46,879 bases of DNA, from the NCBI GenBank assembly GCA_040904565.1, contig JBBDTI010000025.1, positions 1 to 46,879 of the forward strand, in the 5' to 3' direction. This DNA is from Rhodothermales bacterium. GTDB taxonomy: Bacteria > Bacteroidota > Rhodothermia > Rhodothermales > VXPQ01. Both the position numbers and the translations under genes were made by a program. This document shows positions 3,785 to 46,879 of the stretch, piece after piece; the stretch's first letter is position 1, and every line of letters starts with the position of its first letter. The notes beneath the pieces are model-generated. The model was not told the origin of the DNA and did no database searches. It saw only the letters and a program-made list of their open reading frames with translations.

Positions 3785-3788
3785 CGAA

Positions 3789-7939: not shown

Positions 7940-7987
7940 ACGTGTTGGTGGCGAAGTCAAACCTCCAACTCACGCAACGCAAACGCC

Positions 7988-8485: not shown

Positions 8486-8487
8486 GG

Positions 8488-8516
8488 TGGTTGACAGGCA
8501 GCATGGTTGACAGGCA
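8488..8516. repeat. 13-bp direct repeat TGGTTGACAGGCA, 16-bp period
   Basis: Exact copies at 8488-8500 and 8504-8516 in the intergenic region. Confidence 0.8.
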
Positions 8517-8712
8517 AGGTCTTCCGAATGTGGTAGACCTGCGTGTCGCCGTTCACGTCGTGGAGCGTTCTTCTCCGTCGGATTTCCGATGGTGAGGAAG
8601 AATCTCGGTGTCGCTGCGGGACCGACGGGCAGCCGCCGGGAAGAGCATGAAATTCGGGCATTGAGGATAGCAGCAAGATTAAGATAAGAAGTACGATTGC
8701 GTCTTTTCTACC

Positions 8713-9972: not shown

Positions 9973-9991
9973 CGGCGTTTAAGCCCCCATC

Positions 9992-10011
9992 CTCGCGGCG
10001 ATCGTCGCGAG
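9992..10011. terminator. Hairpin between convergent genes (possible terminator)
   Basis: CTCGCGGC-GATC-GTCGCGAG stem with one G-U pair, between stops at 9972 and 10022. No U-tract. Confidence 0.35.
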
Positions 10012-10021
10012 CCCACATCCT

Positions 10022-13000
10022 TCAGGCGGCATCGCGCCGCCGGCTCGCAAATCGATCCGCGATCGATTCCGCGGATGCACTAGCCGGTGAAGCCATGCTG
10101 CCGGACATACTTGTTATAGCGAGCTGTGACGCCGGCCGCGACGTCACCACGTTCTCCACGAGTGCATCGATTCGTTCGAGCTGTGTGGCGGCCGTCAGGT
10201 CGTTATCGGTCAGAAGGGACCGATAACGGTGCGGTTCATAGGGAGAATCGTCCAGCATACGGTCGAGAAATTCGTTGAGATTCCTGAAGATGAACTCCTC
10301 CGGCCAGATCTCGCGGCTCTCGCGCCACGCATGGATCACGGGCTTCAGCCCTGCAGCCATTCCGTTTCCGACCGCATAGTGGAAGGATTCTTCGAGCGAA
10401 AAGCTGAGAATATGTGATTTGTCAACGAGCCATGCATCCAGGTCGTCGATCCATTCCTCGACGATCGTGATGTGGGAATGGAGATCCAGCTCATCCATCA
10501 TCGTCTCGACGGCCATTTTGTAGCGTAAGTCCTGCCAGTCGCCCCGAATGAACAGCCGGTATGCCGGGTCCTCGCGCCGCAGTGCGTCGAAAAACTGCAG
10601 AAGCATCGGGAGGCCCTTTCGGTGATTGATGTGACCGAGAAGCAGGAGATTCTTGGTATTCGACTTGTCGGGAGGAATCGCGAATCGATCCACGGTCACG
10701 CCGTTTCGAATGACGACCTGATCGACATCCGCTGCCGGAACGAGACGGTTGAACAGGTCGCGCTTGTGCTCGGCGACGAAGACGAGTCGGTCGACGACGG
10801 ACCAGTTGATATCACGGATATACGGCGTAAACACTTCGAAGCCGTGCAGTCGGCAGATGACGGATCTCGACGAGAGGGCGTCGATCTCGTGGGTCACCTT
10901 CGCCGTAAGTGGACTCGCCCACTCCAGCCAGACGACGTCCGCTTCGTCTATGGCGCGGCGGGCCGTGGTCAGGTCCGTCGTCTTGAGATACGTGGCGCTG
11001 CACTTCGACCGCCAGTGCTCGACCACGTGATCGAGATGTCCGCCGGTGCTGATGCCGTCCTGCTCGAGAAACAGAATCCTGCTCGGCGTGCTGTGGTCGG
11101 GCGTGCTGTGGGCGGGCGTGATGCGAGACCCGGCCTCGTCGCGCTCCGGAGGTCGACTCGAACTCTGTGGGCGCTCGTAGCCGAAGAACCGGATCTGATC
11201 GCGGCATTCCCGCTCCAGTATGGCGTGTTGCTCGTCGGACCAATCTGAAGGCAGGGGGAATTCTCCCTGTTTCTGAGCATTCAATTTCTTGTTCAGGATG
11301 TCCGCGGCGGCGTCGCGATCGAATCCGTCGAGGCCGAGAACGTCGAACAGGTGCCGGGTTACGTCGGGATCCTCTACGAGGTCCTCGAAGCGGACGATGA
11401 CGTAGCGGTCGTCGGGGAGCCGGTCGATCTCTTCACGAATGCGACGATACGTCTCGTTCCACAGCCAGCACACCTTTTCGAACGGCGTGCGATCCGTCCA
11501 CCCTGCGGCTTCGGCGTGATCCGGCTCGGGGCGCAGTCGCCCGGCGTCCCACGCGTGCCCGCGGTAATACCCGCGCCGCATTCCGGAACGCACGAAGTCC
11601 CACGGATTTCGTACGAGGACGATGAATCGGGCTTCGGCGATATCCTGCCGTATGACGGAGGCGAAGGCGGTCATGTTATGATCCAGCTCGCCGAATACAA
11701 GGCTGTCCTTCCAGGCATCACGCAGGACGTGCCCGCGAGCATTCCAGAAGGTCTTTCGGGCGTCGATATCTTCGTGATAGGCGGCGAGTGTTTCTTCGAC
11801 GAGGTACGGACGAGGGTGGTGGTATACTCTGGCGTTCGCGGCGGTGCCGAGGAGCGCGGACAGCGTCTGGGTGCCGCAGCGCCCGGATGACAGGCAGAAA
11901 AAGGCCTCCCCGGTCGTATCTGAAAGATGGTACCGTCCATAACCGTTCGGCTTCTCCACATCCCGCCAGCGATCGAGATGCTGTGCTACCGAGGCGGCAA
12001 TCCGTTCGTCCAGGCCGGTTGCCAGGGGGGCCGGCAGGTCGTAGACGGCTGCAGACCCCTCCGCTTCATACCCTCCCTCTTCGATCATTGCCGACGTGGG
12101 TAGATAGGCTTTGAGACCGTTCGAATATCCCAGGATGGCCGACCAGTCCGGAAGGTCGGTGTGCCGGGACACGTATCGGGCGAGCTCCCCGACGACTTCA
12201 CCGGGGCACGTGATGAAACACGTGCCCTCGCCTAACGCGAGAAATTGAACCTCGATCGATAAATCCCTCGCCCGCTCGTCCTCCGGGATGGCGGCCTGCC
12301 GGCCCGCCCACTGCCTGTTCACCAGCGGAACGTCATCACTCTTTGCCATTGCCTCGAGCACCTCCGTTGACGGAGGCGGCTGGAAGTCGAGCCGGATCGT
12401 ATCGGTCCGGGCGAAGATGGGACCGTTTACGGACCGAATGCTTCGTCTGAGGGCGTCCGTAACGGCTCGTCCGAGACATCTTGCGTTCAGGTCGACGCCT
12501 TCCGGCGATGTGGTGAATGACGTTTCTCCGTTTTTTACACGGGTCTGCTTTGCGCTTCCGCCGGCGGCCTGCAAGAACATGACTGTATGTGCCACGTCCG
12601 CCTCGACAAGATGAGCCCGCAGGGAGCCGGGAAAATCCGCGGATATAACCTCCCGGTTTCCCAGCCCGGTTGGATGGCAGCCGTGGGCGACCACGGCGGT
12701 GGTCGATCCGTCGTGAAGATGATCGACGACGAGGATCGGCGTGTCTTCAGCATAGAATCCTTCATCGTTGATGCCGAACTGGATCCGGCCGTCCACTTCG
12801 ACGCGGCGATTGGAACCTATCCTCGCATCCGTGCCGGTTGCATAGATAAAGCACGGGCGGAGCCGCTCGAAGAGCTGCGGCAGCAGCTCGCGTATCGTAG
12901 CGGTGACCTTGTTGGTATACGATGCGTCGAAAGCACCGATGGCCGGCGTGACGTGCCGGCACGTGCCGGGGGCGTAATGGGTGTGCGATGCGTTCAGGAG

Positions 13001-13666
13001 AAGGGCCTCCGGAGGAATGCCCCATTCGCGCGCTGTGCGGCGAACGTGCGCGACCGTTGTGTCGTCGAAGCCGAAGAGATCCGCGCTTACGATAAGGCAC
13101 CGGGAGCCGCACTCGTCTTCGAGTAGAAGGAGCTGAAGGAGAAGGGGCGAATGAACGGCTCGAGCGGTTCGGGGCGGTCCTGTAAATCCCTGCAGGACGG
13201 GTCCATCTTCACCCGGCTGGGGCGTAATATTGACGGAGACCTGTGCGGCCCGGTAGGGGGTGGAAGCCTGCGTCAACCCGCCCAGTACGGCGGCACACCG
13301 CCGATCGTCGGGCGACACCCCGCCGGCGCGCGGTGAGTCGTCGCGCAGTGATTCGGCATGCGATGATTCGTCGCGCAGTGATTCGGCATACGCCTTCACG
13401 TAGTCGTGGATGGCAGGTTCTTTAACCAGCTCCGAGAGATTCTCGATAATGCCCTTGTTGGAAGGATCTAGACGCAGCGCGTGCAGATGAGCGTCGACGC
13501 CTTTCTGTATGTCCCCGGAGTGGAGTGCGGCGATACCGACGTTCGTCAGGACGGAGACGTCTCGTGGATGCTCGGCCAGCAGATCCTCGAAGAGCGTAAG
13601 CGCTTCATCAGGCCTGTCATCCCGGAGCAATTGTTCTCCACGTTGAAGGTGTTCGTGAACGTCCAT
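10022..13666 (-). CDS. Multidomain protein: TPR + neutral/alkaline ceramidase-like amidase + sulfotransferase + GT4 glycosyltransferase (1214 aa)
   Basis: TPR N-terminus; ceramidase-family motifs NASHTHYAPG, GCHPT, ISADFPG, PGE, GYSNG..YLPT..EGGYE; sulfotransferase motifs SGRCGTQTL and LVRNPWDFVRS; GT-B motifs RLHGFE, KG and SLEESFHYAVGNGMAAG. Start placed at MDVHE. Confidence 0.85.
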   Translation of the reverse strand: MDVHEHLQRGEQLLRDDRPDEALTLFEDLLAEHPRDVSVLTNVGIAALHSGDIQKGVDAHLHALRLDPSNKGIIENLSELVKEPAIHDYVKAYAESLRDESSHAESLRDDSPRAGGVSPDDRRCAAVLGGLTQASTPYRAAQVSVNITPQPGEDGPVLQGFTGPPRTARAVHSPLLLQLLLLEDECGSRCLIVSADLFGFDDTTVAHVRRTAREWGIPPEALLLNASHTHYAPGTCRHVTPAIGAFDASYTNKVTATIRELLPQLFERLRPCFIYATGTDARIGSNRRVEVDGRIQFGINDEGFYAEDTPILVVDHLHDGSTTAVVAHGCHPTGLGNREVISADFPGSLRAHLVEADVAHTVMFLQAAGGSAKQTRVKNGETSFTTSPEGVDLNARCLGRAVTDALRRSIRSVNGPIFARTDTIRLDFQPPPSTEVLEAMAKSDDVPLVNRQWAGRQAAIPEDERARDLSIEVQFLALGEGTCFITCPGEVVGELARYVSRHTDLPDWSAILGYSNGLKAYLPTSAMIEEGGYEAEGSAAVYDLPAPLATGLDERIAASVAQHLDRWRDVEKPNGYGRYHLSDTTGEAFFCLSSGRCGTQTLSALLGTAANARVYHHPRPYLVEETLAAYHEDIDARKTFWNARGHVLRDAWKDSLVFGELDHNMTAFASVIRQDIAEARFIVLVRNPWDFVRSGMRRGYYRGHAWDAGRLRPEPDHAEAAGWTDRTPFEKVCWLWNETYRRIREEIDRLPDDRYVIVRFEDLVEDPDVTRHLFDVLGLDGFDRDAAADILNKKLNAQKQGEFPLPSDWSDEQHAILERECRDQIRFFGYERPQSSSRPPERDEAGSRITPAHSTPDHSTPSRILFLEQDGISTGGHLDHVVEHWRSKCSATYLKTTDLTTARRAIDEADVVWLEWASPLTAKVTHEIDALSSRSVICRLHGFEVFTPYIRDINWSVVDRLVFVAEHKRDLFNRLVPAADVDQVVIRNGVTVDRFAIPPDKSNTKNLLLLGHINHRKGLPMLLQFFDALRREDPAYRLFIRGDWQDLRYKMAVETMMDELDLHSHITIVEEWIDDLDAWLVDKSHILSFSLEESFHYAVGNGMAAGLKPVIHAWRESREIWPEEFIFRNLNEFLDRMLDDSPYEPHRYRSLLTDNDLTAATQLERIDALVENVVTSRPASQLAITSMSGSMASPASASAESIADRFASRRRDAA
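13338..13389. repeat. 22-bp direct repeat (30-bp period) in a linker of the fusion gene
   Basis: TCGTCGCGCAGTGATTCGGCAT at 13338-13359 and 13368-13389; encodes AESLRD twice. Confidence 0.85.
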
Positions 13667-14003
13667 CGTCGATGCGATTGTAATTGGGAAGGCCTGGTGT
13701 GTCGTGTGACGGCACAAAAAACATTCCCTGGTGCGAGGTCGGGCCGCGCACGGTGCATCTCGCCATCGGGACGTGCCATCCGACGATCCGTCGAGCAGAG
13801 CTATCTGCGCTCGGCGAGCGTCGCCGCGCCAGGGAAAGGATGGGATCGCCGGATTGGGGCGCGACGACATCGCACGCGAACCGTCGCGCGCGTGGCGTGA
13901 GGCAAGAAAGTATTTCCGGGATGATGCAAGGACTGCCTATGGGACGAAGCCGTCAGCCCGCGTATCAGGCGGGTTCTTGAGAGAAGTTACCTCGGCCTTG
14001 TGT

Positions 14004-14019
14004 TGGTAGGCTATTTGCA
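14004..14019 (+). promoter_or_regulatory. Putative sigma-54 promoter of the sugar-modification operon
   Basis: TGGTAGG-CTAT-TTGCA with exact GG-N10-GC spacing, about 100 bp upstream of ATG 14118. Confidence 0.6.
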
Positions 14020-14117
14020 CCGTCGGCAAGAGAACGCGATCCGTGCCCGGAACCGCCTCGCGAGGCGTACCGCTCGATCGCACCATACGTTCGAGAGTGA
14101 CACCAAAGAGCCTACCC

Positions 14118-15089
14118 ATGGCTGATATTAAAGGAAGCCGCGTGCTCGTTATCGGAGGCGCCGGCTTTATCGGATCTCATATCGTCGATCGATTGCTACG
14201 TGAAGATGTGGGAGAGGTCGTCGTCTTCGACAATTTCTGCAGGGGTTCCAGAGAAAATCTCGCTCAAGCGCTGACGGACGACCGGGTTCGAATTTTTGAA
14301 GCGGGCGGCGACATCACCCGGCCCGACATCCTGCGAGCGGCGGCGGAGGGATGTGACTACGCCTTTCACCTCGCCGCGCTGTGGCTGCTTCAATGCCACG
14401 AATATCCGCGCGCGGCCTTCACCGTCAACGTCGAGGGGACGTTCAACGTCCTCGAGGCGTGCCGCGATGCCGGCATTAAGAAGCTCGTCTATTCTTCGTC
14501 CGCCTCCGTGTATGGGGATGCGCTCGAAACGCCCATGACTGAGGATCACCCGTACAACAATCGCACGTTTTACGGTGCGACCAAGATTGCCGGCGAACAT
14601 ATGTGCCGGGCGTTTAACGAACGATACGGGCTCGATTACGTCGGCCTTCGCTACATGAACGTGTACGGGCCGCGGCAGGATTATAAGGGGGCGTATGTGT
14701 CCGTCATTATGAAAATCCTGGATCGTATCGACGCCGGACTTCCCCCCATCGTCTATGGAGACGGTTCGCAGGCGTACGATTTTATCTATGTGGAGGAAGT
14801 GGCCCGCGCCAATCTGCTCGCCTTGCAGTCCGACGCGACGGACGAATGCTTTAACGTAGGGTGCGGCCGGAGCACGTCCATCAAGGCGCTCTGCGAGCTT
14901 CTCCTGGAGCTGACGGGCAGCACGCTGCCGATCCAGTACGAGCCGGCCGGACAAACCTTCGTGACGCGGCGCGTGGGGTCGACCGAAAAGGCGGAGAGGC
15001 TGCTGGACTTCAATTCAGAGGTAGAACTCGCTGACGGACTGCAGCGCCTCATTCGATGGCGGCGCGCCGATATAGCCCTCGCCGCCTGA
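14118..15089 (+). CDS. NAD-dependent NDP-sugar epimerase/dehydratase (extended SDR)
   Basis: GGAGFIGSH, SSSASVYG, YGATK and RYMNVYGPRQ motifs. Confidence 0.95.
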   Translation: MADIKGSRVLVIGGAGFIGSHIVDRLLREDVGEVVVFDNFCRGSRENLAQALTDDRVRIFEAGGDITRPDILRAAAEGCDYAFHLAALWLLQCHEYPRAAFTVNVEGTFNVLEACRDAGIKKLVYSSSASVYGDALETPMTEDHPYNNRTFYGATKIAGEHMCRAFNERYGLDYVGLRYMNVYGPRQDYKGAYVSVIMKILDRIDAGLPPIVYGDGSQAYDFIYVEEVARANLLALQSDATDECFNVGCGRSTSIKALCELLLELTGSTLPIQYEPAGQTFVTRRVGSTEKAERLLDFNSEVELADGLQRLIRWRRADIALAA

Positions 15090-15112
15090 ATCCAACCAAT
15101 CCACTTCTGACG

Positions 15113-16300
15113 ATGCAAAATATACCCATTACCAGAGTGCTTTTCGACGAGGCGGAAATAGAGGCCGTCCAGGAGCCCCTGCGCAGCGGCTGGATCGTGC
15201 AGGGGCCGTACGTGGCCGAGTTCGAACGTAAGTTCGCCGACTTCGCGGGGTCGAAGCACGCCATCGCAACTACATCTTGCACGACGGCGCTACATCTATC
15301 GCTGGCCGCGGCGGGAATCGGACCGGGCGACGAAGTGATCGTACCCGCGTTCACGTGGGTGGCGACGGCGAACGTCGTCGAGTACATGGGTGCGAAGCCG
15401 GTCTTTTGCGACATCGACCTCGAGACGTTCAATGTGGACGTCGACCTGCTGCCGGACCTGATTACGGATCGGACGCGGGCGATCATACCCGTGCACCTCT
15501 TCGGACTTCCGGCCGACATGTACGCGATACGGCGTCTGGCCAGGTGGCACGACCTCGTCGTCGTAGAAGACGCCGCCTGTGGATTTGGAGCCACGTATGA
15601 AGGCACCCACGTCGGCACGCTCAGTCATTTCGGCTGCTTCAGCTTCCATCCTCGAAAAGCGATCACGACGGGCGAAGGCGGGATGATTCTCACACAGCGC
15701 GACGACGCGGCCGAGCTGTGCCGGACGCTGCGGGATCACGGAGCCAGCAAAACCGACCTGTCGCGACACGCAGGAAGCGGCGGATTCCTGCTACCCGCCT
15801 ACGATCACCTCGGCTACAATTATCGCATGACGGACCTTCAGGGCGCGATAGGGTCCATGCAGATGGATAAGGCCGGCGAAATCCAATCCGCCCGCGTTCA
15901 CCGGGCCGAACGATACGACGACCTGCTCGAGTCCACGTCGTGGCTTCGGACGCCGACCGTTCCCGAAGGCAGCACGCACGCCTACCAGTCGTATGTCTGC
16001 CTTTTCCGACCCGAGCCGGTGTCCACGAAGAACGTCGACCGGCTGCATCAGCGCCGGAACGCGCTGATGGCCGAACTCGAATCGCGCGGCATCGCAACGC
16101 GGCAGGGGACCCACGCCGTCACGTCCCAGGGCTACTATCGACGGAAGTACGGCATCCATCCTGAAGCGTATCCCCAGGCTCTCCTCGCGGAGCGCCTCTC
16201 GCTGACGCTTCCGGTGTATCCGCAGATGACCGACGAAGAACAAGACTACGTGGTGGCCCAGCTTCACCAGGTGTTCGAGTCGTACCGGCGCGCGGCCTGA
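15113..16300 (+). CDS. DegT/DnrJ/EryC1/StrS family PLP-dependent sugar aminotransferase
   Basis: SCTTALHL, PVHLFG, VEDAAC, FSFHPRKAITTGEGG and GYNYRMTD motifs. Confidence 0.96.
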   Translation: MQNIPITRVLFDEAEIEAVQEPLRSGWIVQGPYVAEFERKFADFAGSKHAIATTSCTTALHLSLAAAGIGPGDEVIVPAFTWVATANVVEYMGAKPVFCDIDLETFNVDVDLLPDLITDRTRAIIPVHLFGLPADMYAIRRLARWHDLVVVEDAACGFGATYEGTHVGTLSHFGCFSFHPRKAITTGEGGMILTQRDDAAELCRTLRDHGASKTDLSRHAGSGGFLLPAYDHLGYNYRMTDLQGAIGSMQMDKAGEIQSARVHRAERYDDLLESTSWLRTPTVPEGSTHAYQSYVCLFRPEPVSTKNVDRLHQRRNALMAELESRGIATRQGTHAVTSQGYYRRKYGIHPEAYPQALLAERLSLTLPVYPQMTDEEQDYVVAQLHQVFESYRRAA

Positions 16301-16354
16301 CGGCAAGGACCCACTAATACCGTTATTGCAATCCAAGAACAACGAGAGACTATC

Positions 16355-16846
16355 ATGGAGACGTACGAGCAGCTACTGGATCAGGGTGAACGACTCGTGA
16401 GAAGCGGCGACCAGGTGGCCGGCGTTCGCAAATACGCGCGCGCGGCCGAACTCGACCCCAAGCGAAAGGAGGCTTTCACGAAGCTGGGGCTTGTCTATCG
16501 GGAGTACGGGGACGTCGATAGCGCGATGAACTTCTTTGCTCAGGCGGCGAGCCTCGACGAGAAGGACGCCTTCGTTCGATTCAATCTCGGTCTGATCCAG
16601 TACGGGGAAGGGATGCTGGATAGGGCGCGTGAGACGCTCGAGGAAGCCGTATCGATCGTGCAGACGGGCATTGCCGGTGCACGCGTCGAAGCGGAGGGGC
16701 TGCGGTCCGACAAGCAGGGCATCCTGCTCCACCAGTGTGACGAGTTGGAACAGACGGTCGTTGACGCGCAGGCGCTGCTCGCGCAGATCGCCACGGATCA
16801 GGCGGCGACGCCGGAGTCCGGGTTCGCGAGCGGTCAGGCGGGATAG
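16355..16846 (+). CDS. Standalone tetratricopeptide repeat protein
   Basis: TPR repeats (AAELDPKRKEAFTKLGLVY; AASLDEKDAFVRFNLGLIQY); paralog of 7988..8485. Confidence 0.85.
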   Translation: METYEQLLDQGERLVRSGDQVAGVRKYARAAELDPKRKEAFTKLGLVYREYGDVDSAMNFFAQAASLDEKDAFVRFNLGLIQYGEGMLDRARETLEEAVSIVQTGIAGARVEAEGLRSDKQGILLHQCDELEQTVVDAQALLAQIATDQAATPESGFASGQAG

Positions 16847-16886
16847 CCTGCACGGCTGAGGGTTAGCATAACCACGGGAGAACGCC

Positions 16887-18842
16887 ATGTGCGGTATAGC
16901 AGGCATTATGAACGCGGACGGCCGGCCGATTTCCGGTCCCTTGCTGCGGCGAATGACGAACGCGCTTCGCCATCGGGGACCGGATGGGGAAGGGTACGTC
17001 GTCAGCGGTCGAATCGGACTCGGACATCGACGACTGGCCGTCCTCGATCCCTCGCCGGCGGGTCATCAGCCGATGCAGACGGAAGACGGTCGCTTCGTGA
17101 TCAGCTATAACGGCGAAGTGTATAATTTCCAGAATCTGCGCCTGACGCTGGAGTCGCTCGGCCACGTGTTTCGCTCGAAGACGGACACGGAAGTGGTCCT
17201 ACGGGCATTCCGGGAGTGGGGGCCGGACTGCGTCAAGCGGTTCAACGGCATGTTCGCATTCGCCGTGTGGGATGCCGTGGAACGGCGGCTCGTGCTCGCG
17301 CGGGATCGGTATGGGATCAAGCCGCTCTATTATACCCACTCAGACGGTTCGTTTCTCTTCGGCTCGGAGATCAAGGCGATCCTGGCCCATCCGTCCGTCT
17401 CCGTACGGGTATGCATCGAGGCAATGAACGAGTATTTCTCGTTCCAGAACGTGTTTTCCGACCGGACCCTCTTCGAAGGAATCAGGATGCTTCCCGCGGG
17501 AACGATCATGCTCGTCAGTGCGGACGGAACGGTTCGCAGCGAGCGGTACTGGGATTTCGATTTCAGAGACTCCGATACGTTAACCGAGTCGGAATGCATC
17601 GAAGGATTTCAGTATTACTTCGAGCAGGCCGTCAACCGCCAGCTGGTCGCCGATACGGAGGTGGGCTCATTCCTCAGCGGCGGGATCGACTCCGGATCCA
17701 TCACGTCGGTCGCGTCCAAGAGCTTTGACTTTTTGAAGACCTTCACCTGCGGCTTCGATCTTCGATCCGCCTCAGGGCTCGAGTTGAACTTCGACGAGCG
17801 AGAGCGGGCCGAACATCTATCCTACCTGAACGGCACCGAGCATTACGAGGTCGTGTTGAAAGCCGGCGACATGGAGCGCGTCATGCCGGACCTCATCCGC
17901 CACATGGAGGACCTCCGCGTCGGACAGAGCTATCCCAACTATTACGTCAATCGCCTGGCCGGCAAATTCGTAAAGGTCGCGCTTTCGGGCACCGGAGGAG
18001 ACGAACTCTTCGCCGGATATCCGTGGCGCTACTATCGCGCCGTCGTGAATGCCGATGCCGACCATTACATGGACAAGTACTATCGCTACTGGCAGCGACT
18101 CATCCCGGACCGCATCAAGCCGGACTTTTACCAGCCGGACATCTACCCGGAAGTGTGGAATCACCAGACGAAGGACGTATTCAACCAGGTTATGAACGGC
18201 CGGGCAGAGAATCTGGCGACGCCGGAAGAATACGTCAATCGGTCCCTCTATTTCGAGGCCAAAACCTTCCTGCACGGACTCCTGGTCGTCGAAGACCGGC
18301 TCAGCATGGCGCACGGGCTCGAGGTCCGCGTGCCGTTTCTGGACAACGATCTCGTGGACTTTGCGATGAAGGTGCCCGTCCGGTACAAGCTGCGCGATCT
18401 GCGTGACGTCGTTCGGCTCAATGAAAATGAGCCGGGGCGGAAAACCCAGCAATATTTTTCCCGCACGAACGACGGCAAGCTCCTCCTGAGAAAGGCTCTG
18501 GAACGGTACGTGCCGGCCGAATACGCGCACGGCTGCAAGCAAGGATTCTCGGCGCCGGACGGCAGCTGGCTCAAAGGGGAGAGCATCGATTACGTACGAG
18601 ACCTCCTGTTTGACGACCGGGCTCGCATCTACGATTACATCCAGCCCGAGACGGCGCAGGGGCTCATGCGGGAACACTTTGAAGGTCGCACGAACCGCCG
18701 GCTTCTCATCTGGTCCCTGCTCTGCTTCGAATGGTGGTGCAAGACGTTCATGGAGGACCGGCATGCGCCCGAAAAGGGCCTTCGATCCAACGGCCGCCGT
18801 CAAGAGACTGTCCCCATTCAGACATTGTCCGCAGCAGCATGA
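16887..18842 (+). CDS. asnB: Asparagine synthase (glutamine-hydrolysing)-family amidotransferase, probably acting on a sugar
   Basis: MCGIAG N-terminus, HRGPD, GHRRL, YNGEVYN, LSGGIDS, SGTGGDELFAGY and EVRVPFLD motifs. Confidence 0.95.
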   Translation: MCGIAGIMNADGRPISGPLLRRMTNALRHRGPDGEGYVVSGRIGLGHRRLAVLDPSPAGHQPMQTEDGRFVISYNGEVYNFQNLRLTLESLGHVFRSKTDTEVVLRAFREWGPDCVKRFNGMFAFAVWDAVERRLVLARDRYGIKPLYYTHSDGSFLFGSEIKAILAHPSVSVRVCIEAMNEYFSFQNVFSDRTLFEGIRMLPAGTIMLVSADGTVRSERYWDFDFRDSDTLTESECIEGFQYYFEQAVNRQLVADTEVGSFLSGGIDSGSITSVASKSFDFLKTFTCGFDLRSASGLELNFDERERAEHLSYLNGTEHYEVVLKAGDMERVMPDLIRHMEDLRVGQSYPNYYVNRLAGKFVKVALSGTGGDELFAGYPWRYYRAVVNADADHYMDKYYRYWQRLIPDRIKPDFYQPDIYPEVWNHQTKDVFNQVMNGRAENLATPEEYVNRSLYFEAKTFLHGLLVVEDRLSMAHGLEVRVPFLDNDLVDFAMKVPVRYKLRDLRDVVRLNENEPGRKTQQYFSRTNDGKLLLRKALERYVPAEYAHGCKQGFSAPDGSWLKGESIDYVRDLLFDDRARIYDYIQPETAQGLMREHFEGRTNRRLLIWSLLCFEWWCKTFMEDRHAPEKGLRSNGRRQETVPIQTLSAAA

Positions 18843-19534
18843 ATGACGTTGACGTACAGGCGGTCGTAGACCGGAGACTTGAAGGGCTCGAACGATACGG
18901 GCGGTCTGCCGCCGCACTGGGCGACGGCAAGGGCGGTCGACAGGACGTGCGCTTCGCCGTCTACGCGGAGTACATCCTGGACCATGACGATGCGTCCGTG
19001 CTGGATCTGGGGTGCGGATTTGCCGATCTGTTCGAATATCTACGGCGCCGGGGATGGCGCGGCAGATATAGGGGCGTCGAGATCGTGCCGGAATACGTCG
19101 AGCAGATACGGCGGATCCATCCGGAATTGGAGGTCCTGCAGGGCGACGTCGAGACGATGCTGGAAGACCTGCCGACCCACGATTTCGTCGTTGCGGCGAG
19201 CATCATGAATCTCCGGCTGAAGGCCGGCGAGAATGAAGCCTATATCCGACGCATGATGCGCCGCATGTTCGACCGGGCCGACGTAGCGGCGGGGATGGAC
19301 TTCATGACCACGTATGTGGACTGGCAACATCCGGATGCGTGGCACACGGACCCGGCATGGGCGGTCACCGAAGCGAGTCGCCTGACACGGCGCGTCGTGC
19401 TCCGCGCCGATTTTATGCCCTATGAGTTCGTGCTCATTCTCTTCAAGGATGATCGAGCGTCAGTCCGCAACGTCTACCGGGCGTTCGAGGCACGTTTAGA
19501 CGCGTCGGAGGTCGGAGGCGGGGATGATGCGTGA
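18839..19534 (+). CDS. Class I SAM-dependent methyltransferase
   Basis: SVLDLGCGFAD motif I and YRGVEI motif; ATG overlaps the asnB stop (ATGA). Confidence 0.88.
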   Translation: MNDVDVQAVVDRRLEGLERYGRSAAALGDGKGGRQDVRFAVYAEYILDHDDASVLDLGCGFADLFEYLRRRGWRGRYRGVEIVPEYVEQIRRIHPELEVLQGDVETMLEDLPTHDFVVAASIMNLRLKAGENEAYIRRMMRRMFDRADVAAGMDFMTTYVDWQHPDAWHTDPAWAVTEASRLTRRVVLRADFMPYEFVLILFKDDRASVRNVYRAFEARLDASEVGGGDDA

Positions 19535-20810
19535 CGGGTACCTCGCCGTACTGGGCGGCAACAAGATGGCCTGCCACGGTATCGAACGACTCGAAGCCCT
19601 GGGCTATCGCCTGCTCGTGCTAGACGGCAATCCACAGGCCGCCGCCCGTACGCCCGGACGTCCCTTCCTGGCCGTCGATTTCTCCGACACAAACGCAGCG
19701 CTCCGCGCGCTGGAGCCGTTCGAGCTGGGTGGCATCATGCCGTTGAACGATTTCGCGGTTCGCTCGTCGTCCCGCATCGCAAGAGAGCGTGGACTCCGGG
19801 GATGGACCGAGGAGACGGCGTACCGGTTGACCAATAAGGCGGCCATGCGAGCGGTCTGGCGTGAGGCGAACCTGCCACAGCCGTCCTACTGTTCCGTGTC
19901 CATCGAAGACCTGCTCGCCGGTCAGCATCCCGTATGGGATTCATTCCCATGCATCGTCAAGCCCGCCTTCGCGGGAGGCGCCAGCCGGGGCGTCCACCTC
20001 GTGCACGACTGGGATGAGGCACGCGCCGTCGTCGAAGCCACGCGCGACGTCTACCTGGATGCCGACGTCGTCATCGAAGAATACGTACGCGGCACCGAGC
20101 ATACCCTTGAAGTCGTCGTAAGGGATGGCCGGCCGACGCTCCTCTCCATCTCCGACAAACAGAATTACCCGGGTCACGTCAGCGTCGTCCAGAACCTCTA
20201 CTTTCCCGGCCCGGTCGGGTGGGCCGCGCACGATCGATTATGCGACCTTGTTTTTGCCGCCTGCGGCGCTCTGGGGGTGACCGACGGAGCCTGCCATTTC
20301 GAAGTGCTGCTTACCGAGCACGGCCCGCTCCTTCTAGAGGTGGGCGGACGGCCGGGCGGTGGACTCAACTTCGATCCGATCTGCCGGCTTTCGACGGGCT
20401 TCGACTATCCGAGCCTGCTCGCCTGCATTCTAACCGGAGAATCTCCCCGGTTCGTCCGTCAAGAGCCGTGTCACCTGGCCTGGCACTACTTCGACGGCGG
20501 GGACGGAACGGTCCAGGACATCATAGGAATGGACGAGGTCGATGGGGCCGATGGCGTCGTGGATGTCGAATGCTACGAGCGCGTGGGAGAGCCGCGCCGC
20601 CGCCTCACCGACGACCTTGAACGCCCCGGCTACGTGCTCGTCCGCGCCGACAGCCATGGCGCCGCCCGAACGCTCGCCGCACGGATGTGCGACCGTATAG
20701 AAGTTTTGACCCACGCGCCGACATCGAAGTCGCTCCATACCGAACACCTAGCTACCGCATCACATGAAGATACTGGTTGGTACACACGAGATATGCCGGC
20801 AGGCGTATGA
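19524..20810 (+). CDS. ATP-grasp domain ligase
   Basis: NKAAMR, IVKP..GGASRGV, VIEEYVRG.E, HFEV and LLEVGGRPGG motifs. Confidence 0.88.
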   Translation: MMRDGYLAVLGGNKMACHGIERLEALGYRLLVLDGNPQAAARTPGRPFLAVDFSDTNAALRALEPFELGGIMPLNDFAVRSSSRIARERGLRGWTEETAYRLTNKAAMRAVWREANLPQPSYCSVSIEDLLAGQHPVWDSFPCIVKPAFAGGASRGVHLVHDWDEARAVVEATRDVYLDADVVIEEYVRGTEHTLEVVVRDGRPTLLSISDKQNYPGHVSVVQNLYFPGPVGWAAHDRLCDLVFAACGALGVTDGACHFEVLLTEHGPLLLEVGGRPGGGLNFDPICRLSTGFDYPSLLACILTGESPRFVRQEPCHLAWHYFDGGDGTVQDIIGMDEVDGADGVVDVECYERVGEPRRRLTDDLERPGYVLVRADSHGAARTLAARMCDRIEVLTHAPTSKSLHTEHLATASHEDTGWYTRDMPAGV

Positions 20811-22401
20811 CCTGGCCGCGGCGTTTCGTACCCTCGGCCACGAGGCTGAAACCGTTATGGTGGCCCGAAATCCACAGCACCCTGAACTCGTCTACGACCA
20901 CGTGTACGATCAGGGTGCTCTCTGGCAGCACTACGTACGATTGACGAAGCAGCCGATCGAGTCCTGGCTCCACCCGGAGCCCGATCTCGTTCGGCTGCGC
21001 GACATGCTGACCGGCTACGACGCCTACGTATTCCAGTTCTCGCACAGCCTGCTGCCGTTCAATCAGGATTTTCCCATCCTGCGCCGGCTGGGCAAGAAAA
21101 TCCTATCACTCTTCAATGGAAGCGATATTCGCCACTGGTCGGCCGCAAAGCCTATCGCGGATAAATACGGGTATCACGTACCGGATCTTCTCTGGCAGCC
21201 GCCGTACAACGATCTCAATTCACGCATGCACAACCTACGCATGGCGGAGCGGTATGCGGACGCCCTGTTTGGAGCACCGGGGTGTTCCCAGCTGGCCGTT
21301 CGACCGTACTGGCAGTTTCCGATTCCGGTAGACCTGTCGCGGCTCGTCGAGAACGTGCCCCGGCGCGACGTCCCGGTCGTCGTGCACGCCCCATCCCGTC
21401 GCGGTTATAAGGGGACGACCGAGATCCTGGAGGTACTCGAGCGACTGGAAAGGGAAGGCATTCGATTCGATCTTCGGTTGCTAGAAGACGTACCTAACCG
21501 GGAGGTCCTCCGAGAGCTCACGCAGGCAGACGTCGTTCTGGATCAGCTCAATGCTCCGAATTATGCGATGCTCGCCCTGGAAGGGATGGCCACGGGCTGC
21601 GTCGTCGCCGGAGGTAGGAATCCGAACTACATGCCGTTCTACAGTAGTGCTCCCGTCTACGAAATCACGCGGGAGGGCCTCTACGAACAGCTCAAACGAC
21701 TCCTTACATCCAAAGACCTGCGTACGGAATTCGCCGTACAGGGACGTTCCTACGTGGAGCGCACGCACGGTCGCATCGCCGTCGCCGAATATCTCCTGTC
21801 GCGTCTCGAGACGTCTGACGAACCGGACTACTTTCCGACCTTCGTGGCGCGGCGATATCATGTGCCGGAGGAGTGCCAGGTGTCCGATCGCGTCAGGAAG
21901 TTGACGGCCGAGGTGGTGCAGCGGCACGGACTGCCTCACGGTGTAACGGCACAGGACATGGCGCGGCGCGGACTGCTAAATCCGGATGTGCTCGACGCGT
22001 CGCGCCCGATCACGTCCTGGCAGCCCCTCCACGAAGATCAAGCGGAGGAGATCTGGGGATGGAGCCGCTTACTGCGAAGTGTCGATCGTCCGGGGACTCC
22101 GTGCGTGGCCGGCACGATCCTTCACCACGTTTCCCGCGCGATCCGTGCCGTCGAGGAAAAGGACTTCGACACGGCTTCCGGGCTGCTTCAAGAATGCATC
22201 ACGCTGTTGACGGAGCACGACGCCGTCACTATGGACGCTGCCGTGCTGAAGGCGATCGGGCGTTTAGCGCGCGAACTCAACGAGCCGGCGCTTGCCGCCG
22301 GACTGTGGCGGCAGGCGGCCGCACTCGACCCGGACTCGGATCAGGAGCTGGCTCCCGCTATCGCCGAATTGGATGCTCCTACGTCCGTGCAGGCAGCGTA
22401 G
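20764..22401 (+). CDS. GT-B glycosyltransferase with C-terminal TPR-like helices
   Basis: [27 protein letters not shown] and ALEGMATG motifs; C-terminal [14 protein letters not shown]-like segment. Confidence 0.82.
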
Positions 22402-44329: not shown

Positions 44330-44336
44330 ATATCAG

Positions 44337-44411
44337 CGGTCCGGACGGGACTCGAACCCGCGACCTCCTGCGTGACAGGCAGGCGTTCTAACCAAACTGA
44401 ACTACCGGACC
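44337..44411 (-). tRNA. tRNA-Asp (GTC)
   Basis: GGTCCGG acceptor stem, TAGTTCAGTTTGGTTAGAAC D arm, CCTGC-CTGTCAC-GCAGG anticodon arm, GGTTCGAGTCC T arm. CCA not encoded. Confidence 0.97.
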
Positions 44412-44816: not shown

Positions 44817-44832
44817 CGGCAGTCTATTTGTA
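44817..44832 (+). promoter_or_regulatory. Putative sigma-54 promoter
   Basis: CGGCAGT-CTAT-TTGTA, ending 53 bp upstream of ATG 44886. Confidence 0.4.
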
Positions 44833-44885
44833 GATGCCGACGGATCCACCACCACCTGCCTAACCCCCCACCAGGGTTACCCTAT

Positions 44886-45440
44886 ATGAAAGAGGAAGAC
44901 GAGCCGAAAGATACGGCCTATCTCTCGAGTCTCTCCCTCCATAAGCTTGGAGCGTACGCTATGGAGGAAGAGTTGATCGAAGGGATAGAGATTCGGGACG
45001 ATGTCGTAACTATTGTTCAGGGCGACAACCGTTTCGTCCTGCCTCCGAAACAGGCCGCCACGTTTCTCGTGGGGATGCTCAGGGGTCGATCGTGGTTCAT
45101 ACAGCCGGGCGATCCGGAGGGTCGGCCCGCCGAGCCGGGGAGCGACCCTTCCGAACCGGGGGAAGACCCTGCCGAACCTGGACGCGACCCGGAGCATGCG
45201 GCGGATGAACCCGGCGGCGGGCAGGGCGTCCACAATCAATCTCTGGAGCGGACGCTCGATTCGTTGCTTGCCTTCGCTCAGGACGCCGGCATTCTCGATG
45301 GGTACGAGAAGGACGCGGAGACGCAGACGGTCCGTATCGACATTCCCGCCTGTTCGACGACCCTGTCTTACATCGATGCGCTCGGCTACCTTCTCGACTG
45401 TATCCAGTACGAGCTCCGAGCGTACCGAGAAGAAGAATAG
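44886..45440 (+). CDS. Hypothetical protein with two copies of a ~55-aa domain joined by a Pro-rich linker
   Basis: Acidic, globular-looking ORF. Its two halves resemble each other and 46116..46358. Linker is (PxEPGxD)3. Start set at ATG 44886; the ORF track starts at 44805. Confidence 0.75.
   Translation: MKEEDEPKDTAYLSSLSLHKLGAYAMEEELIEGIEIRDDVVTIVQGDNRFVLPPKQAATFLVGMLRGRSWFIQPGDPEGRPAEPGSDPSEPGEDPAEPGRDPEHAADEPGGGQGVHNQSLERTLDSLLAFAQDAGILDGYEKDAETQTVRIDIPACSTTLSYIDALGYLLDCIQYELRAYREEE
45126..45188 (+). repeat. Three 21-bp units encoding PAEPGSD-PSEPGED-PAEPGRD
   Basis: Read directly from the sequence, in frame with 44886. Confidence 0.85.
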
Positions 45441-45599
45441 GCAGGCCGAGACGGGCCCTGCCGTCGCGATCGGCAGGTGCCCGACCCGGTGCACGCAGCA
45501 CATCATTGATGCACCTTATAGACACCTGAAGGCCGGCATATATAACCTGTCCCGTTCCGATGTCGCGTTGAGCGCGGCTTTAGATCGATCGCTTTCTGC

Positions 45600-45626
45600 T
45601 TAAGGGGACGTGAAATCGGTCGATAC
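45600..45626 (+). promoter_or_regulatory. Putative sigma-28 (FliA) promoter of the response regulator
   Basis: TTAAG-N14-GTCGATAC (consensus TAAAG-N14-GCCGATAA), 70 bp upstream of ATG 45697. Confidence 0.5.
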
Positions 45627-45696
45627 GTCCAGTACGATCCCAACACAGGTATCCGCACAGTATCGAACCGTCGCACCGGCGAAAGCCCGCTACGCA

Positions 45697-46065
45697 ATGA
45701 AAGCATTACTTATTGAGGACAACCTCGTACTGGCTACGATCACGAGCCGGAGTCTTCAGGCTCTGCGCTTCACGCACGTGGACGTAGCGCATAACGGTGA
45801 GGAAGCACTAAAATTCCTCACGCGGCAAAAGTACAATGTCATCCTCGTCGACTGGATGCTTCCGAAGACGAGCGGGCTGGAGATCGTCAAGGCGATTCGA
45901 GCGAGCACGGATCACCACAATACGCCGATCATCATGACGACCGGCAAGAGCGAACGTCAGGACATCATCAAGGCGCTTAAGTCCGGCGTAGATTCTTATC
46001 TCGTCAAACCGATCAGTCCGCACGTTCTCAAGGACCGCATCGACAAGGTGCTGGCGACGCCCTGA
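45697..46065 (+). CDS. Single-domain CheY-like response regulator
   Basis: LLIEDN, ILVDWMLPKTSGLE (phospho-Asp), IIMTT and YLVKP motifs; no output domain. Confidence 0.92.
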   Translation: MKALLIEDNLVLATITSRSLQALRFTHVDVAHNGEEALKFLTRQKYNVILVDWMLPKTSGLEIVKAIRASTDHHNTPIIMTTGKSERQDIIKALKSGVDSYLVKPISPHVLKDRIDKVLATP

Positions 46066-46115
46066 CTGCAGCGTGCCGTCCGTACCTACCTGCCACCGTT
46101 GGTTTCGCGGGCCCC

Positions 46116-46358
46116 TCATGCTTGAGAGTGGCATCGTTCTCGGGCCGGACTCCCGGCACGTTCATCTCGGTGTTTGATGGCGGCTCCATAGAGCACGCCC
46201 TGTAGAAAGAATCGGGCGTCGGCCCGGCTCATGTACAGCTCACATCCGTCGATCACTAGATGTACCACCGTCACCCTTAGTTCGTAGCGGTCAACCACGT
46301 TGACGCGCTGGGAGAGTTTGAGAAGAGTGTGGAGCGACACGCTTCGCAGATTGTGCAT
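46116..46358 (-). CDS. Small hypothetical protein (one copy of the ~55-aa domain)
   Basis: MHNLRSVSLHTLL...FFLQGVLYG aligns without gaps to the N-domain of 44886..45440. A sigma-54-like element upstream supports ATG 46358. Confidence 0.7.
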   Translation of the reverse strand: MHNLRSVSLHTLLKLSQRVNVVDRYELRVTVVHLVIDGCELYMSRADARFFLQGVLYGAAIKHRDERAGSPARERCHSQA

Positions 46359-46399
46359 GAATAGGAGCCGTTCGGGGTGGGAATTCACCCGAACGTATA

Positions 46400-46414
46400 T
46401 CAAGAGCCGTACCA
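46400..46414 (-). promoter_or_regulatory. Putative sigma-54 promoter
   Basis: Minus strand TGGTACG-GCTC-TTGA, 41 bp upstream of ATG 46358. Confidence 0.55.
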
Positions 46415-46525: not shown

Positions 46526-46577
46526 GCACTGCAAGGGGCGGTGCGAGAGGCTCTACTAGGGGCACTGCAAGGGGCGG
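46526..46577. repeat. 16-bp direct repeat GCACTGCAAGGGGCGG
   Basis: Exact copies at 46526-46541 and 46562-46577. Confidence 0.8.
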
Positions 46578-46723
46578 CTTCGCACGCCGTCACGTATCTC
46601 ACGTCACGCTTTTTTTTCGAAACCGCGACCTCAGCCTCCGGGTATTACGTGCTCGCCGAGCAGCAGCGCCGTGGTTTCCCCTTAAAGCTGATGTGAATCC
46701 GCGCGCCTTGGAGACGTGGGGGG

Positions 46724-46818: not shown

Positions 46819-46879
<61 letters not shown>

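What the first reader, a model, noticed from the sequence alone, without database searches (positions are those of the whole stretch)
44886..46358. Unrecognised ~55-aa domain in three copies flanking a CheY-like regulator
Seen: YLSSLSLHKL...EIRDDVVTIV...AATFLVGMLRG (44886 N-half) aligns without gaps to NLRSVSLHTL...ELRVTVVHLV...ARFFLQGVLYG (46358 gene), with 17 of 56 identities by my count. The C-half TLDSLLAFAQDAGILDGYE...VRIDIPAC...DALGYL fits the same helix-strand-strand-strand-helix pattern with a 2-residue gap. Both genes have sigma-54-like promoters and converge on a single-domain response regulator that has a sigma-28-like promoter. All three genes lie between two outward-facing tRNAs. 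Inference: a lineage-specific small signalling domain in the motility regulon, for example a receiver partner, phosphatase or adaptor.
Basis: partly seen in the sequence, partly recalled or inferred. Interest (0 to 1): 0.7.

Follow-up and report, generated by a model that had tools for sequence, protein, structure and literature searches.

The report
Unannotated small domain flanking response regulator
Two real genes on either side of a flagellar-type response regulator carry three copies of a small protein domain that occurs only in Rhodothermales bacteria and matches no curated family; it often sits next to two-component signalling genes, which suggests but does not prove that it is a signalling partner.

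Summary
Gene A (44886-45440, +) has two alpha-beta3-alpha domains joined by a disordered acidic, proline-rich linker. Gene C (46116-46358, -) is a third, diverged copy of the N-type domain. A 122-aa stand-alone receiver (45697-46065, +) lies between them. The block sits between tRNA-Asp (-) and tRNA-Phe (+).

The domain matches nothing in Pfam, NCBIfam, PHROGs, PADLOC or PDB sequences, and has no convincing fold match. The family is small: 84 clusters among 1.84 billion representatives, and 20 of 201 Rhodothermales genomes. No member is fused to a receiver.

The promoter calls survive at motif level:
- The receiver has a TAAG-N14-GNCGATA motif. The same motif precedes three flagellin genes and flgM, and it is conserved in a second genus.
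- Genes A and C carry GG-N8-TTG motifs like those before fliS and a rod gene.

A receiver-domain ORF lies within 2.2 kb at 12 of 43 family loci, against 6% for random places. This supports a role as a two-component accessory or target protein.

Against that reading, gene A's ortholog persists without the receiver in two relatives where no flagellin was found. Binding is untested and the function remains inferred. This is a modestly interesting, lineage-specific new family.

The parts
44336..44411 (-). tRNA-Asp (GTC), left border of the block
   Evidence: ARAGORN; Rfam tRNA, 71.8 bits. The same tRNA borders the orthologous block in G006, G001 and G004.
44817..44831 (+). Sigma-54-type promoter-like motif CGGCAGTCTATTTGT (GG-N8-TTG), starting 69 nt before the ATG of gene A
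   Evidence: Conserved as YGGMAG-N4-TTTTG in the 4 orthologous upstream regions, which otherwise diverge. Positions. Motif level only.
44886..45440 (+). Gene A (P0001, 184 aa, pI 4.2): N-type domain, disordered linker, C-type domain
   Evidence: Translation. 15 homologues at 35-60% identity, all unnamed. AlphaFold2 mean pLDDT 80.3. pI.
44916..45101 (+). N-type alpha-beta3-alpha domain of gene A (about residues 11-72)
   Evidence: H18-27, E33-36, E41-45, E48-52, H54-65, with pLDDT 89-97. Conserved FLxGMLRGRSW motif.
45102..45221 (+). Acidic, Pro-rich linker (about residues 73-112), predicted disordered and variable in length among homologues
   Evidence: pLDDT 43-50. Indel-rich columns in the family alignment.
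45222..45437 (+). C-type alpha-beta3-alpha domain of gene A (about residues 113-184)
   Evidence: H114-133, E139-143, E148-152, E157-161, H162-183, with pLDDT 94-97. Profile-profile match to the N-type domain, E=3.7e-6.
45601..45625 (+). Sigma-28 (FliA)-type promoter-like motif TAAG-N14-GTCGATA; the receiver ATG lies 96 nt after the motif's first base
   Evidence: Block conserved in G006 within an otherwise diverged spacer. The pattern has 14 genome hits against 4 for the control, including sites before 3 flagellin genes and flgM. A FliA gene is present.
45697..46065 (+). Stand-alone receiver (P0003, 122 aa), CheY-like
   Evidence: PF00072, E=5.6e-26. D8, D52, T82 and K104 are invariant in 24 homologues. 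85-86% identical ortholog next to the gene A ortholog in G006.
46116..46358 (-). Gene C (P0002, 80 aa, pI 9.6): single N-type domain plus a short tail
   Evidence: Translation. Family profile 24.1 bits. AlphaFold2 pLDDT 84.5, pTM 0.69, H9-18, E24-27, E31-36, E39-44, H45-67. 84% identical homologue P0019. The domain part 46161-46374 is kept at about 89% nucleotide identity in contigs of three other studies, while both flanks are replaced.
46400..46414 (-). Sigma-54-type promoter-like motif TGGTACGGCTCTTGA upstream of gene C
   Evidence: Its spacing to the domain start is similar to that at gene A (55 against 58-68 nt).
46526..46577 (.). Two exact 16-nt direct repeats GCACTGCAAGGGGCGG, 36 nt apart, 115-165 nt upstream of the gene C motif; possibly an activator site
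   Evidence: the repeat finder family D3. The region is not kept in the relatives' contigs, so its role is doubtful.
46819..46879 (+). tRNA cut by the window end (tRNA-Phe by synteny), right border of the block
   Evidence: Rfam tRNA, 49.4 bits, cut at its 3' end. tRNA-Phe(GAA) is at the same place in G006, G001 and G004.

Best explanation
Genes A and C encode members of a Rhodothermales-restricted family of small, non-enzymatic alpha-beta3-alpha domains. These domains most likely act as protein-protein partners (accessory, connector or target proteins) of two-component signalling proteins. In this locus the stand-alone receiver is transcribed from a FliA-type promoter as part of the late flagellar regulon. 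It is inferred to signal through, or be modulated by, the acidic two-domain protein A and the basic single-domain protein C. Both A and C appear to be driven by sigma-54-type promoters. Shown here: the three domain copies, their shared fold, the family's narrow range, the conserved promoter-like motifs, and the enrichment of receiver genes next to family members. Inferred only: physical binding, the direction of signalling, and any effect on motility.
For: 1) Homology of the three copies. All three share the same predicted fold at pLDDT about 96. 2) Receiver-domain ORFs lie within 2.2 kb at 12 of 43 family loci, against 6.3% of random 500-bp segments of this genome. 3) The contexts differ from one another, so the signal does not come from one inherited arrangement: gene A ortholog followed by the receiver (window, G006); N-type paralog directly after a roughly 1500-aa Reg_prop/Y_Y_Y/HisKA/HATPase/receiver hybrid kinase (L073, L075, L078), or with one sugar-transferase gene between (L071, L076, L077); member then GAF-PAS kinase then LuxR regulator (L060); LuxR regulator then member (L079); AccD-receiver convergent with a member (L064, L070). 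4) The receiver ortholog was found only beside a gene A ortholog. Among G001, G004, G006, G002 and G005, only G006 has it, at that place. Two metagenome receiver homologues share their recorded contig length with gene A homologues: 18996 and 3357 nt. 5) Relatives in three other studies keep receiver plus gene C together. 6) No polar residue is invariant across the family, and two-domain members are uniformly acidic with pI 4.2-7.0. This fits a binding module, not an enzyme or a DNA binder. 7) Promoter motifs.
Against: 1) In 2 of 4 syntenic loci (G001, G004) the gene A ortholog sits between the same tRNAs with no receiver. No receiver ortholog was found elsewhere in those genomes. So gene A works without it. 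2) Gene C is missing from G006. 3) 31 of 43 loci have no receiver within 2.2 kb, including nearly all small single-domain members. Their neighbours are heterogeneous. 4) No fusion to a receiver or kinase appears among the 84 hits. 5) In L064 and L070 the receiver and the member are convergent, not co-transcribed. 6) The loci are related genomes and not independent, and the background rate was measured in one genome only. 7) The sigma-54-type pattern as a regex is not enriched genome-wide: 188 hits, about what chance gives. It also lacks the usual C of the -12 GC.
Confidence: 0.4

Rival explanations
1. The family has a role unrelated to two-component signalling, for example a sigma-54-controlled envelope or polysaccharide-associated accessory protein. 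On this reading the receiver next to gene A is a lineage-specific insertion between two tRNA genes, with no functional coupling.
For: The gene A ortholog persists without the receiver in G001 and G004. Neighbours often include polysaccharide genes: Bac_transf, GNVR/Wzc-like, UDP-glucose dehydrogenase, glycosyltransferase and WbqC. 31 of 43 loci lack a nearby receiver. The receiver is far better conserved than gene A between G000 and G006 (86% against 46%), as expected if they evolve under separate constraints.
Against: Receivers are enriched about fourfold over background, in several unrelated arrangements. The receiver ortholog was only ever seen next to gene A.
Confidence: 0.27
2. The domain is a nucleic-acid-binding module of the dsRBD-like alpha-beta3-alpha class, and the proteins are RNA- or DNA-binding regulators.
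For: The topology is the same as a dsRBD. dsRBD proteins (TARBP2, Staufen, DRB4, ADAR, DCL4) recur among the weak Foldseek and VIA rows for both models. Gene C is basic, pI 9.6.
Against: All matches lie in the noise range: Foldseek E 0.16-1.4, VIA Z no higher than 4.4 for dsRBD rows. There is no Pfam dsrm hit at E<=10. Two-domain members are strongly acidic, and the close homologue of gene C has pI 6.4. No basic patch is conserved.
Confidence: 0.1
3. The family is a very diverged analogue or relative of the flagellar protein FlaG, or another late flagellar accessory factor, acting on filament assembly rather than on signalling.
For: Both solved FlaG representatives (6jsx, 2hc5) appear in the top 50 of 48,161 chains for both models, Z 3.5-5.0. 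PF03646 was found in none of 201 Rhodothermales genomes, 89 of which have flagellin. Genes A and C carry the motif type seen before fliS and flgB. 16 of 20 family-bearing genomes have flagellin, against 73 of the other 181.
Against: The Z values are below the tool's stated noise level. 73 flagellin-bearing genomes have no family member, and 4 family-bearing genomes have no flagellin hit. There is no sequence match to PF03646. The paralogs' contexts are not flagellar.
Confidence: 0.07
4. Gene C, or both genes, are chance ORFs of a GC-rich genome and not real genes.
For: The window has 61% G+C and many shadow ORFs. One example is a 209-aa antisense ORF over gene A. Gene C has a single close homologue in the 5.8-billion-protein search.
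Against: The fold predictions are confident. Gene A has 46 relatives at E<=1e-10. Gene C fits the family profile. Its domain part is kept at about 89% nucleotide identity in three other studies while the adjacent non-coding DNA is replaced. P0002 and P0019 differ at 8 of residues 1-66, while a 1222-nt contig has 23 nucleotide differences over 213 nt. That contig has the same length as the one on record for P0019.
Confidence: 0.03

Closest known systems
Small accessory or 'connector' proteins of two-component systems (PmrD, MgrB, SafA, CacA, small DUF1127 proteins)
   Same: They are small, non-enzymatic, often lineage-restricted proteins encoded near or under control of two-component systems, and they act by binding a kinase or a receiver. 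The class is described in papers seen as a search listing and abstracts only (PMC8404706, PMC3533512, PMC12501420).
   Different: There is no sequence or fold relationship to any of them. Here the unit is a duplicated alpha-beta3-alpha domain, present as tandem and as single-domain paralogs. Binding is not demonstrated. Gene A also occurs without the receiver.
CheY and its partners (FliM, CheZ/CheX-type phosphatases)
   Same: The middle gene is a stand-alone receiver with the full phospho-acceptor set and a FliA-type promoter. The flanking proteins would then correspond to targets or modulators of such a receiver.
   Different: The receiver scores 72.4 bits against the 189-bit cut-off of the CheY equivalog model. 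No MCP signalling domain and only one weak CheW-domain hit were found in the genome. The flanking proteins resemble neither FliM nor any known CheY phosphatase, and they lack conserved catalytic-type residues.
dsRBD-like alpha-beta3-alpha domains (dsRBD, HPF/RaiA core, FlaG/YvyC, T7 Gp1.2, kinesin-3 MBS)
   Same: The order of secondary-structure elements is the same, and two helices pack on a three-stranded sheet. These folds fill the weak rows of all four fold searches.
   Different: The best scores are Foldseek E=0.16 and VIA Z=6.0 (gene A) or 4.9 (gene C), below the level the tool calls meaningful. There is no sequence-profile match.

Membership tests
Any curated protein family (Pfam-A, NCBIfam, PHROGs, PADLOC, PDB sequences) | Profile match at or near the curated threshold | tested here: not met
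   Genes A and C have 0 families at E<=10 in Pfam and NCBIfam. PHROGs gives only a 0.25 E-value stub for gene C. PADLOC gives none. The PDB profile search gives 0 at E<=10. Among 35 single-domain members, no Pfam family is matched by more than 1 member.
dsRBD (Pfam dsrm) | alpha-beta-beta-beta-alpha topology | tested here: met
   DSSP on the AlphaFold2 models.
dsRBD (Pfam dsrm) | Significant sequence or structure similarity to solved dsRBDs | tested here: inconclusive
   There is no Pfam hit. Foldseek rows for dsRBD proteins have E 0.16-1.4. VIA Z is 3.5-4.4.
FlaG (PF03646) | Match to the FlaG profile | tested here: not met
   Genes A and C have no hit at E<=10. PF03646 has no hit in this genome at E<=0.1, nor in 201 genomes of the order.
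FlaG (PF03646) | Fold similarity to solved FlaG (6jsx, 2hc5) | tested here: inconclusive
   VIA Z is 5.0 and 4.7 for the gene A C-domain, and 3.5 and 4.3 for gene C. These are within the noise range.
CheY (NCBIfam NF007901, for the middle gene) | Stand-alone receiver with the phospho-acceptor residues | tested here: met
   The protein is 122 aa and PF00072 covers residues 4-115. D8, D52, T82 and K104 are invariant in the alignment of 24 sequences.
CheY (NCBIfam NF007901, for the middle gene) | Score above the equivalog cut-off | tested here: not met
   72.4 bits against a cut-off of 189.
CheY (NCBIfam NF007901, for the middle gene) | Chemotaxis partners (MCP, CheA/CheW) in the genome | tested here: inconclusive
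   MCPsignal has 0 hits. A CheW domain has 1 hit at 28.4 bits. The genome is 94.9% complete.
Two-component connector or accessory proteins (functional class) | Direct binding to a sensor kinase or a receiver that changes signalling output | not testable with these tools
   Only genomic association is available: 12 of 43 loci against a 6.3% background.

The most novel reading that the evidence does not exclude
The alpha-beta3-alpha domain is a previously undescribed, Rhodothermales-specific output or adaptor module for receiver domains. Stand-alone receivers, and hybrid kinases that lack any DNA-binding output, would dock onto it. The tandem and single-domain paralogs, including an acidic/basic pair at this locus, would form a small private interaction network. 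That network would link the sigma-54 and sigma-28 tiers of the flagellar hierarchy to other pathways such as exopolysaccharide synthesis.
Probability: 0.2. Interest if true: 0.65.

Novelty: new variant of a known kind. Interest (0 to 1): 0.42.

Why it matters
If the domain really is a receiver partner, it would add a new structural class to the short list of two-component accessory proteins. It would also give a handle on two open problems. One is how stand-alone receivers signal in a flagellated lineage where no MCP was found. The other is how roughly 1500-aa hybrid kinases with no DNA-binding output pass on their signal. In practical terms, it defines an unannotated family of about 84 clusters that could be added to domain databases. 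If the association is incidental, this is simply one more lineage-specific family of unknown function.

Tried and rejected
- Complex prediction of the gene A N-domain, its C-domain and the receiver gave a 'no answer' verdict: ipSAE 0.00 in two runs, controls not run. This is neither support for nor evidence against binding.
- Search for sequencing runs: no RNA holder is listed, so expression could not be examined.
- Fold searches on both models gave nothing at Foldseek E<=1e-3. The best VIA Z was 6.0 (kinesin-3 MBS) and 4.9 (LEM domain, Rho N-terminal domain).
- The ESM Atlas search gave only sub-threshold leads: stand-alone TRCF-domain clusters at 0.82, and 67-70-aa cyanobacterial hypothetical proteins by structure.
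- The search for related loci with the broad alignment failed for lack of a conserved stretch. The narrower alignment gave 4 loci: three Rhodothermales MAGs, and a 24-residue match in a Gammaproteobacteria MAG that was not followed.
- The canonical sigma-54 pattern with 3 mismatches is uninformative: 285 hits against 323 expected. My first GGCAG-N5-TTTG pattern had the wrong spacing.
- FlaG-replacement idea: PF03646 is not found in any of 201 genomes of the order, and 73 flagellin-bearing genomes have neither it nor this family. There is therefore no complementary distribution.
- Toxin-antitoxin or defence idea for the small paralogs: neighbours are heterogeneous and include no recurrent partner, and PADLOC has no hit.
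- Integration-island idea: a 15/16 match to the tRNA-Asp T-arm at 46617-46632 lies on the wrong side for an att duplication and may be chance.
- Earlier notes of this scan hold nothing on this locus or on this sequence.
Full report
ANATOMY

The last 2.6 kb of the window holds five features:
- tRNA-Asp(GTC) on the minus strand, 44336-44411.
- Gene A, 44886-45440, plus strand, 184 aa, protein P0001.
- A 122-aa gene, 45697-46065, plus strand, protein P0003.
- Gene C, 46116-46358, minus strand, 80 aa, protein P0002.
- A plus-strand tRNA cut by the window end, 46819-46879.

P0003 is a receiver domain (PF00072, E=5.6e-26). D8, D52, T82 and K104 are invariant in an alignment of 24 homologues. Only gene C converges on the receiver. 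Gene A is upstream of it on the same strand.

- BLASTP of P0001 against P0002 gives 17/55 identities without gaps, E=2e-5.
- A profile of 22 family members scores gene C at 24.1 bits (E=3.8e-6 over the ORFs of 43 loci), on the N-domain positions.
- The N- and C-halves of the family, compared as profiles, match with 87% probability, E=3.7e-6, over 50 columns with one 2-residue gap.
- AlphaFold2 on the family alignment gives gene A two domains of helix, three strands, helix at pLDDT about 96. They are joined by a disordered acidic, proline-rich linker, residues 76-111. pTM is 0.41, so the relative position of the two domains is undefined.
- Gene C, modelled with 34 single-domain relatives, adopts the same order of elements: pLDDT 84.5, pTM 0.69.

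BOTH GENES ARE REAL

Gene A:
- It has 15 homologues at 35-60% identity in the 5.8-billion-protein search. None carries a functional name.
- The profile finds 84 clusters at E<=1e-3 among 1.84 billion representatives; 46 reach 1e-10 and 21 reach 1e-30.

Gene C:
- It has one close homologue, P0019, with 67/80 identities.
- Contigs from three other studies (runs X5, X7, X8) keep the receiver gene and the domain part of gene C (46161-46374) at about 89% nucleotide identity. The spacer 46066-46160 and the region upstream of gene C are replaced by unrelated letters.
- Within the receiver, 15 of the 17 listed differences fall on third codon positions. The table showed only 40 of 282 differences, and none of those shown lies in gene C.

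A 209-aa antisense ORF over gene A is a shadow ORF of a 61% G+C genome.

NO KNOWN FAMILY MATCHES

- Pfam and NCBIfam at E<=10: no family for A or C.
- PHROGs: only a 0.25 E-value stub for gene C.
- PADLOC: none.
- PDB sequence profile search at E<=10: none.
- Pfam on 35 single-domain members: no family is matched by more than one member.
- Foldseek finds nothing at E<=1e-3 for either model. The best VIA Z is 6.0 for gene A and 4.9 for gene C, below the tool's noise level of 7-8.

The weak rows are filled by other alpha-beta3-alpha domains: dsRBDs, HPF, FlaG/YvyC, T7 Gp1.2 and the kinesin-3 MBS. The topology is therefore a common one, and no relationship can be claimed.

RANGE AND ARCHITECTURE OF THE FAMILY

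- The relatives' records are titled Rhodothermales.
- The profile hits 20 of 201 genomes sampled from the order. By family the counts are f1 6/18, f2 6/7, f18 3/4, f24 3/24 and f3 1/7, with 1-6 matches per genome.
- This genome has gene A, gene C, a two-domain paralog on contig C79, an N-type paralog on C80 and a small one on C58.
- Forms are two-domain (about 160-230 aa), N-only and C-only (64-150 aa).
- No hit is fused to a receiver or a kinase. One 825-aa outlier with 8 short stretches was not followed.
- Invariant or nearly invariant columns are almost all hydrophobic, so there is no catalytic-looking residue.
- Two-domain members are acidic, pI 4.2-7.0. Gene C has pI 9.6, but its homologue P0019 has pI 6.4.

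SYNTENY

The block tRNA-Asp(-), gene A ortholog, tRNA-Phe(+) is kept in G006, G001 and G004.
- G006 also has the receiver (85-86% identical), but nothing like gene C.
- G001 and G004 have only 340-370 bp between gene A and tRNA-Phe, and no receiver.

Among G001, G004, G006, G002 and G005, a receiver ortholog was found only in G006, at that place. Two metagenome receiver homologues share their recorded contig lengths with gene A homologues: 18996 and 3357 nt. So the receiver has been seen only next to gene A, while gene A also exists without it.

PROMOTER-LIKE MOTIFS

Sigma-28 type, before the receiver:
- TAAG-N14-GTCGATA (45601-45625) lies in a block conserved between G000 and G006 inside an otherwise diverged spacer.
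- The pattern TAAG-N14-GNCGATA occurs 14 times in the genome, against 4 for the control.
- It lies upstream of 3 of the 4 full flagellin genes, of an FlgM gene (PF04316), of this receiver, and of a second receiver-like ORF at the end of contig C21.
- FliA is encoded in the genome.

Sigma-54 type, before genes A and C:
- CGGCAGTCTATTTGT, starting 69 nt before the gene A ATG, is conserved in all four orthologous upstream regions.
- Gene C has TGGTACGGCTCTTGA at a similar distance.
- Among 53 family members, this GG.A-N6-TTG motif is found upstream of the gene A orthogroup and gene C, plus three scattered hits. The background is 2.8% per 260 nt.
- Sites of the same type sit 47 nt before fliS (PF02561) and 74 nt before a rod-protein gene (PF00460) on contig C26.
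- RpoN and 11 Sigma54_activat hits are present, one of them next to flgM.
- The regex alone is not enriched genome-wide (188 hits), and the sites lack the C of the usual -12 GC. This is therefore motif-level evidence only.

LINK TO MOTILITY

- The window begins with flgK-J-I-H-A-G-F (262-6984). About 38 kb of modification and housekeeping genes separate that cluster from the finding.
- Flagellin is found in 89 of 201 genomes of the order. It is found in 16 of the 20 family-bearing genomes and in 73 of the other 181.
- The four family-bearing genomes without a flagellin hit are G001, G004, G109 and G186. They include the two whose gene A ortholog lacks the receiver.
- The receiver therefore tracks flagella. 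The domain family tracks flagella only loosely.

LINK TO TWO-COMPONENT SIGNALLING

A receiver-domain ORF lies within 2.2 kb at 12 of the 43 family loci examined. The rate for random 500-bp segments of this genome, which has 48 receiver ORFs, is 6.3%. The binomial p is 9e-6, but this is overstated because the loci are related.

The arrangements differ from one another:
- The gene A ortholog is followed by the receiver (window, G006).
- An N-type paralog lies directly after a roughly 1500-aa hybrid kinase, in L073, L075 and L078. In L075, the one scanned, the domains are Reg_prop, Y_Y_Y, HisKA, HATPase and receiver, and no DNA-binding domain was detected.
- The same pair occurs with one sugar-transferase gene between, in L071, L076 and L077. 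L077 is this genome's C80 copy.
- A member is followed by a GAF-PAS-HisKA_3 kinase and a LuxR regulator (L060).
- A LuxR regulator is followed by a member (L079).
- AccD-receiver is convergent with a member (L064, L070).
- In L063, a divergent kinase plus two regulators lie just beyond the 2.2-kb cut-off.

By contrast, the 19 loci of small single-domain members have heterogeneous neighbours and no receiver within 2.2 kb.

READING

The best-supported explanation, at about 40%, is a lineage-specific, non-enzymatic protein-binding module that partners with receiver domains. At this locus it would couple a FliA-controlled stand-alone receiver to proteins A and C. The main rival, at about 27%, is that the neighbourhood is incidental and the family has another role under sigma-54 control. 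Nucleic-acid binding, a FlaG-like flagellar role and non-coding ORFs are less likely.

NOVELTY

The family is absent from the curated libraries searched. Two literature searches found no paper on such a domain. The first, 'Rhodothermales' with 'response regulator' and 'flagell', returned one paper, seen as listing and abstract only, on an unrelated transcriptome. The second, on connector proteins, returned 23 papers, of which 10 were listed and seen as listing and abstracts; none concerned this family. The functional kind, small accessory proteins of two-component systems, is well known.

Noticed in passing
window 46526-46541 and 46562-46577: Two exact copies of the 16-mer GCACTGCAAGGGGCGG, 36 nt apart, lie 115-165 nt upstream of the sigma-54-type motif of gene C. 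This is the usual distance for an activator binding site, but the region is replaced in the relatives' contigs.
   Followed up: partly
window 46617-46632: A 15/16 match to the T-arm part of the tRNA-Asp gene (44352-44367), in the same orientation and close to tRNA-Phe. It may be a tRNA remnant or chance.
   Followed up: no
window 262-6984 and 7925-22401: The flagellar cluster flgK-flgJ-flgI-flgH-flgA-flgG-flgF is followed by a block of TPR, sulfotransferase, glycosyltransferase, aminotransferase, asparagine-synthase-like and ATP-grasp genes. The block starts behind a near-canonical sigma-54 motif, TGGCACAGTACTTGA, at 7925-7939. This may be a flagellin-modification island.
   Followed up: partly
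G000 whole genome: This flagellated genome has 5 Flagellin_N hits, FliA, RpoN and FlgM. No MCPsignal hit and only one weak CheW-domain hit (C26:24161-24541, 28.4 bits) were found at 94.9% completeness.
   Followed up: partly
L075:239-4822 (also L073, L078; partial in L071, L076, L077): A roughly 1500-aa hybrid kinase has Reg_prop repeats, Y_Y_Y, HisKA, HATPase, a receiver and a second kinase-like end, but no DNA-binding domain was detected. It is followed by an N-type family member that carries its own conserved C-terminal extension (F-R-x-x-L...W...RY...G-x-P...W-I-x-Y).
   Followed up: partly
G000:C21:48619-48964 (L110): A second receiver-like ORF lies behind a TAAG-N14-GACGATA motif, cut by the contig end. 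Pfam gave no hit for the 73-aa fragment.
   Followed up: partly
L071:4816-6065, L076:5046-6223, L075:5016-5753, L078:1154-2226, L072:4451-5241: Family members occur in local clusters of two or three. These often include a convergent small copy, which echoes the layout of genes A and C in the window.
   Followed up: partly
L058:4872-4961: A Gammaproteobacteria MAG contig matches 24 residues of the FLxGMLRG region at 57% identity. This would lie outside the family's known range, or it may be chance.
   Followed up: no
window 44877-45506 (-) and L056:5917-6648 (-): Long antisense ORFs (209 and 243 aa) overlap gene A and its G006 ortholog. They are taken as shadow ORFs of a GC-rich genome.
   Followed up: partly
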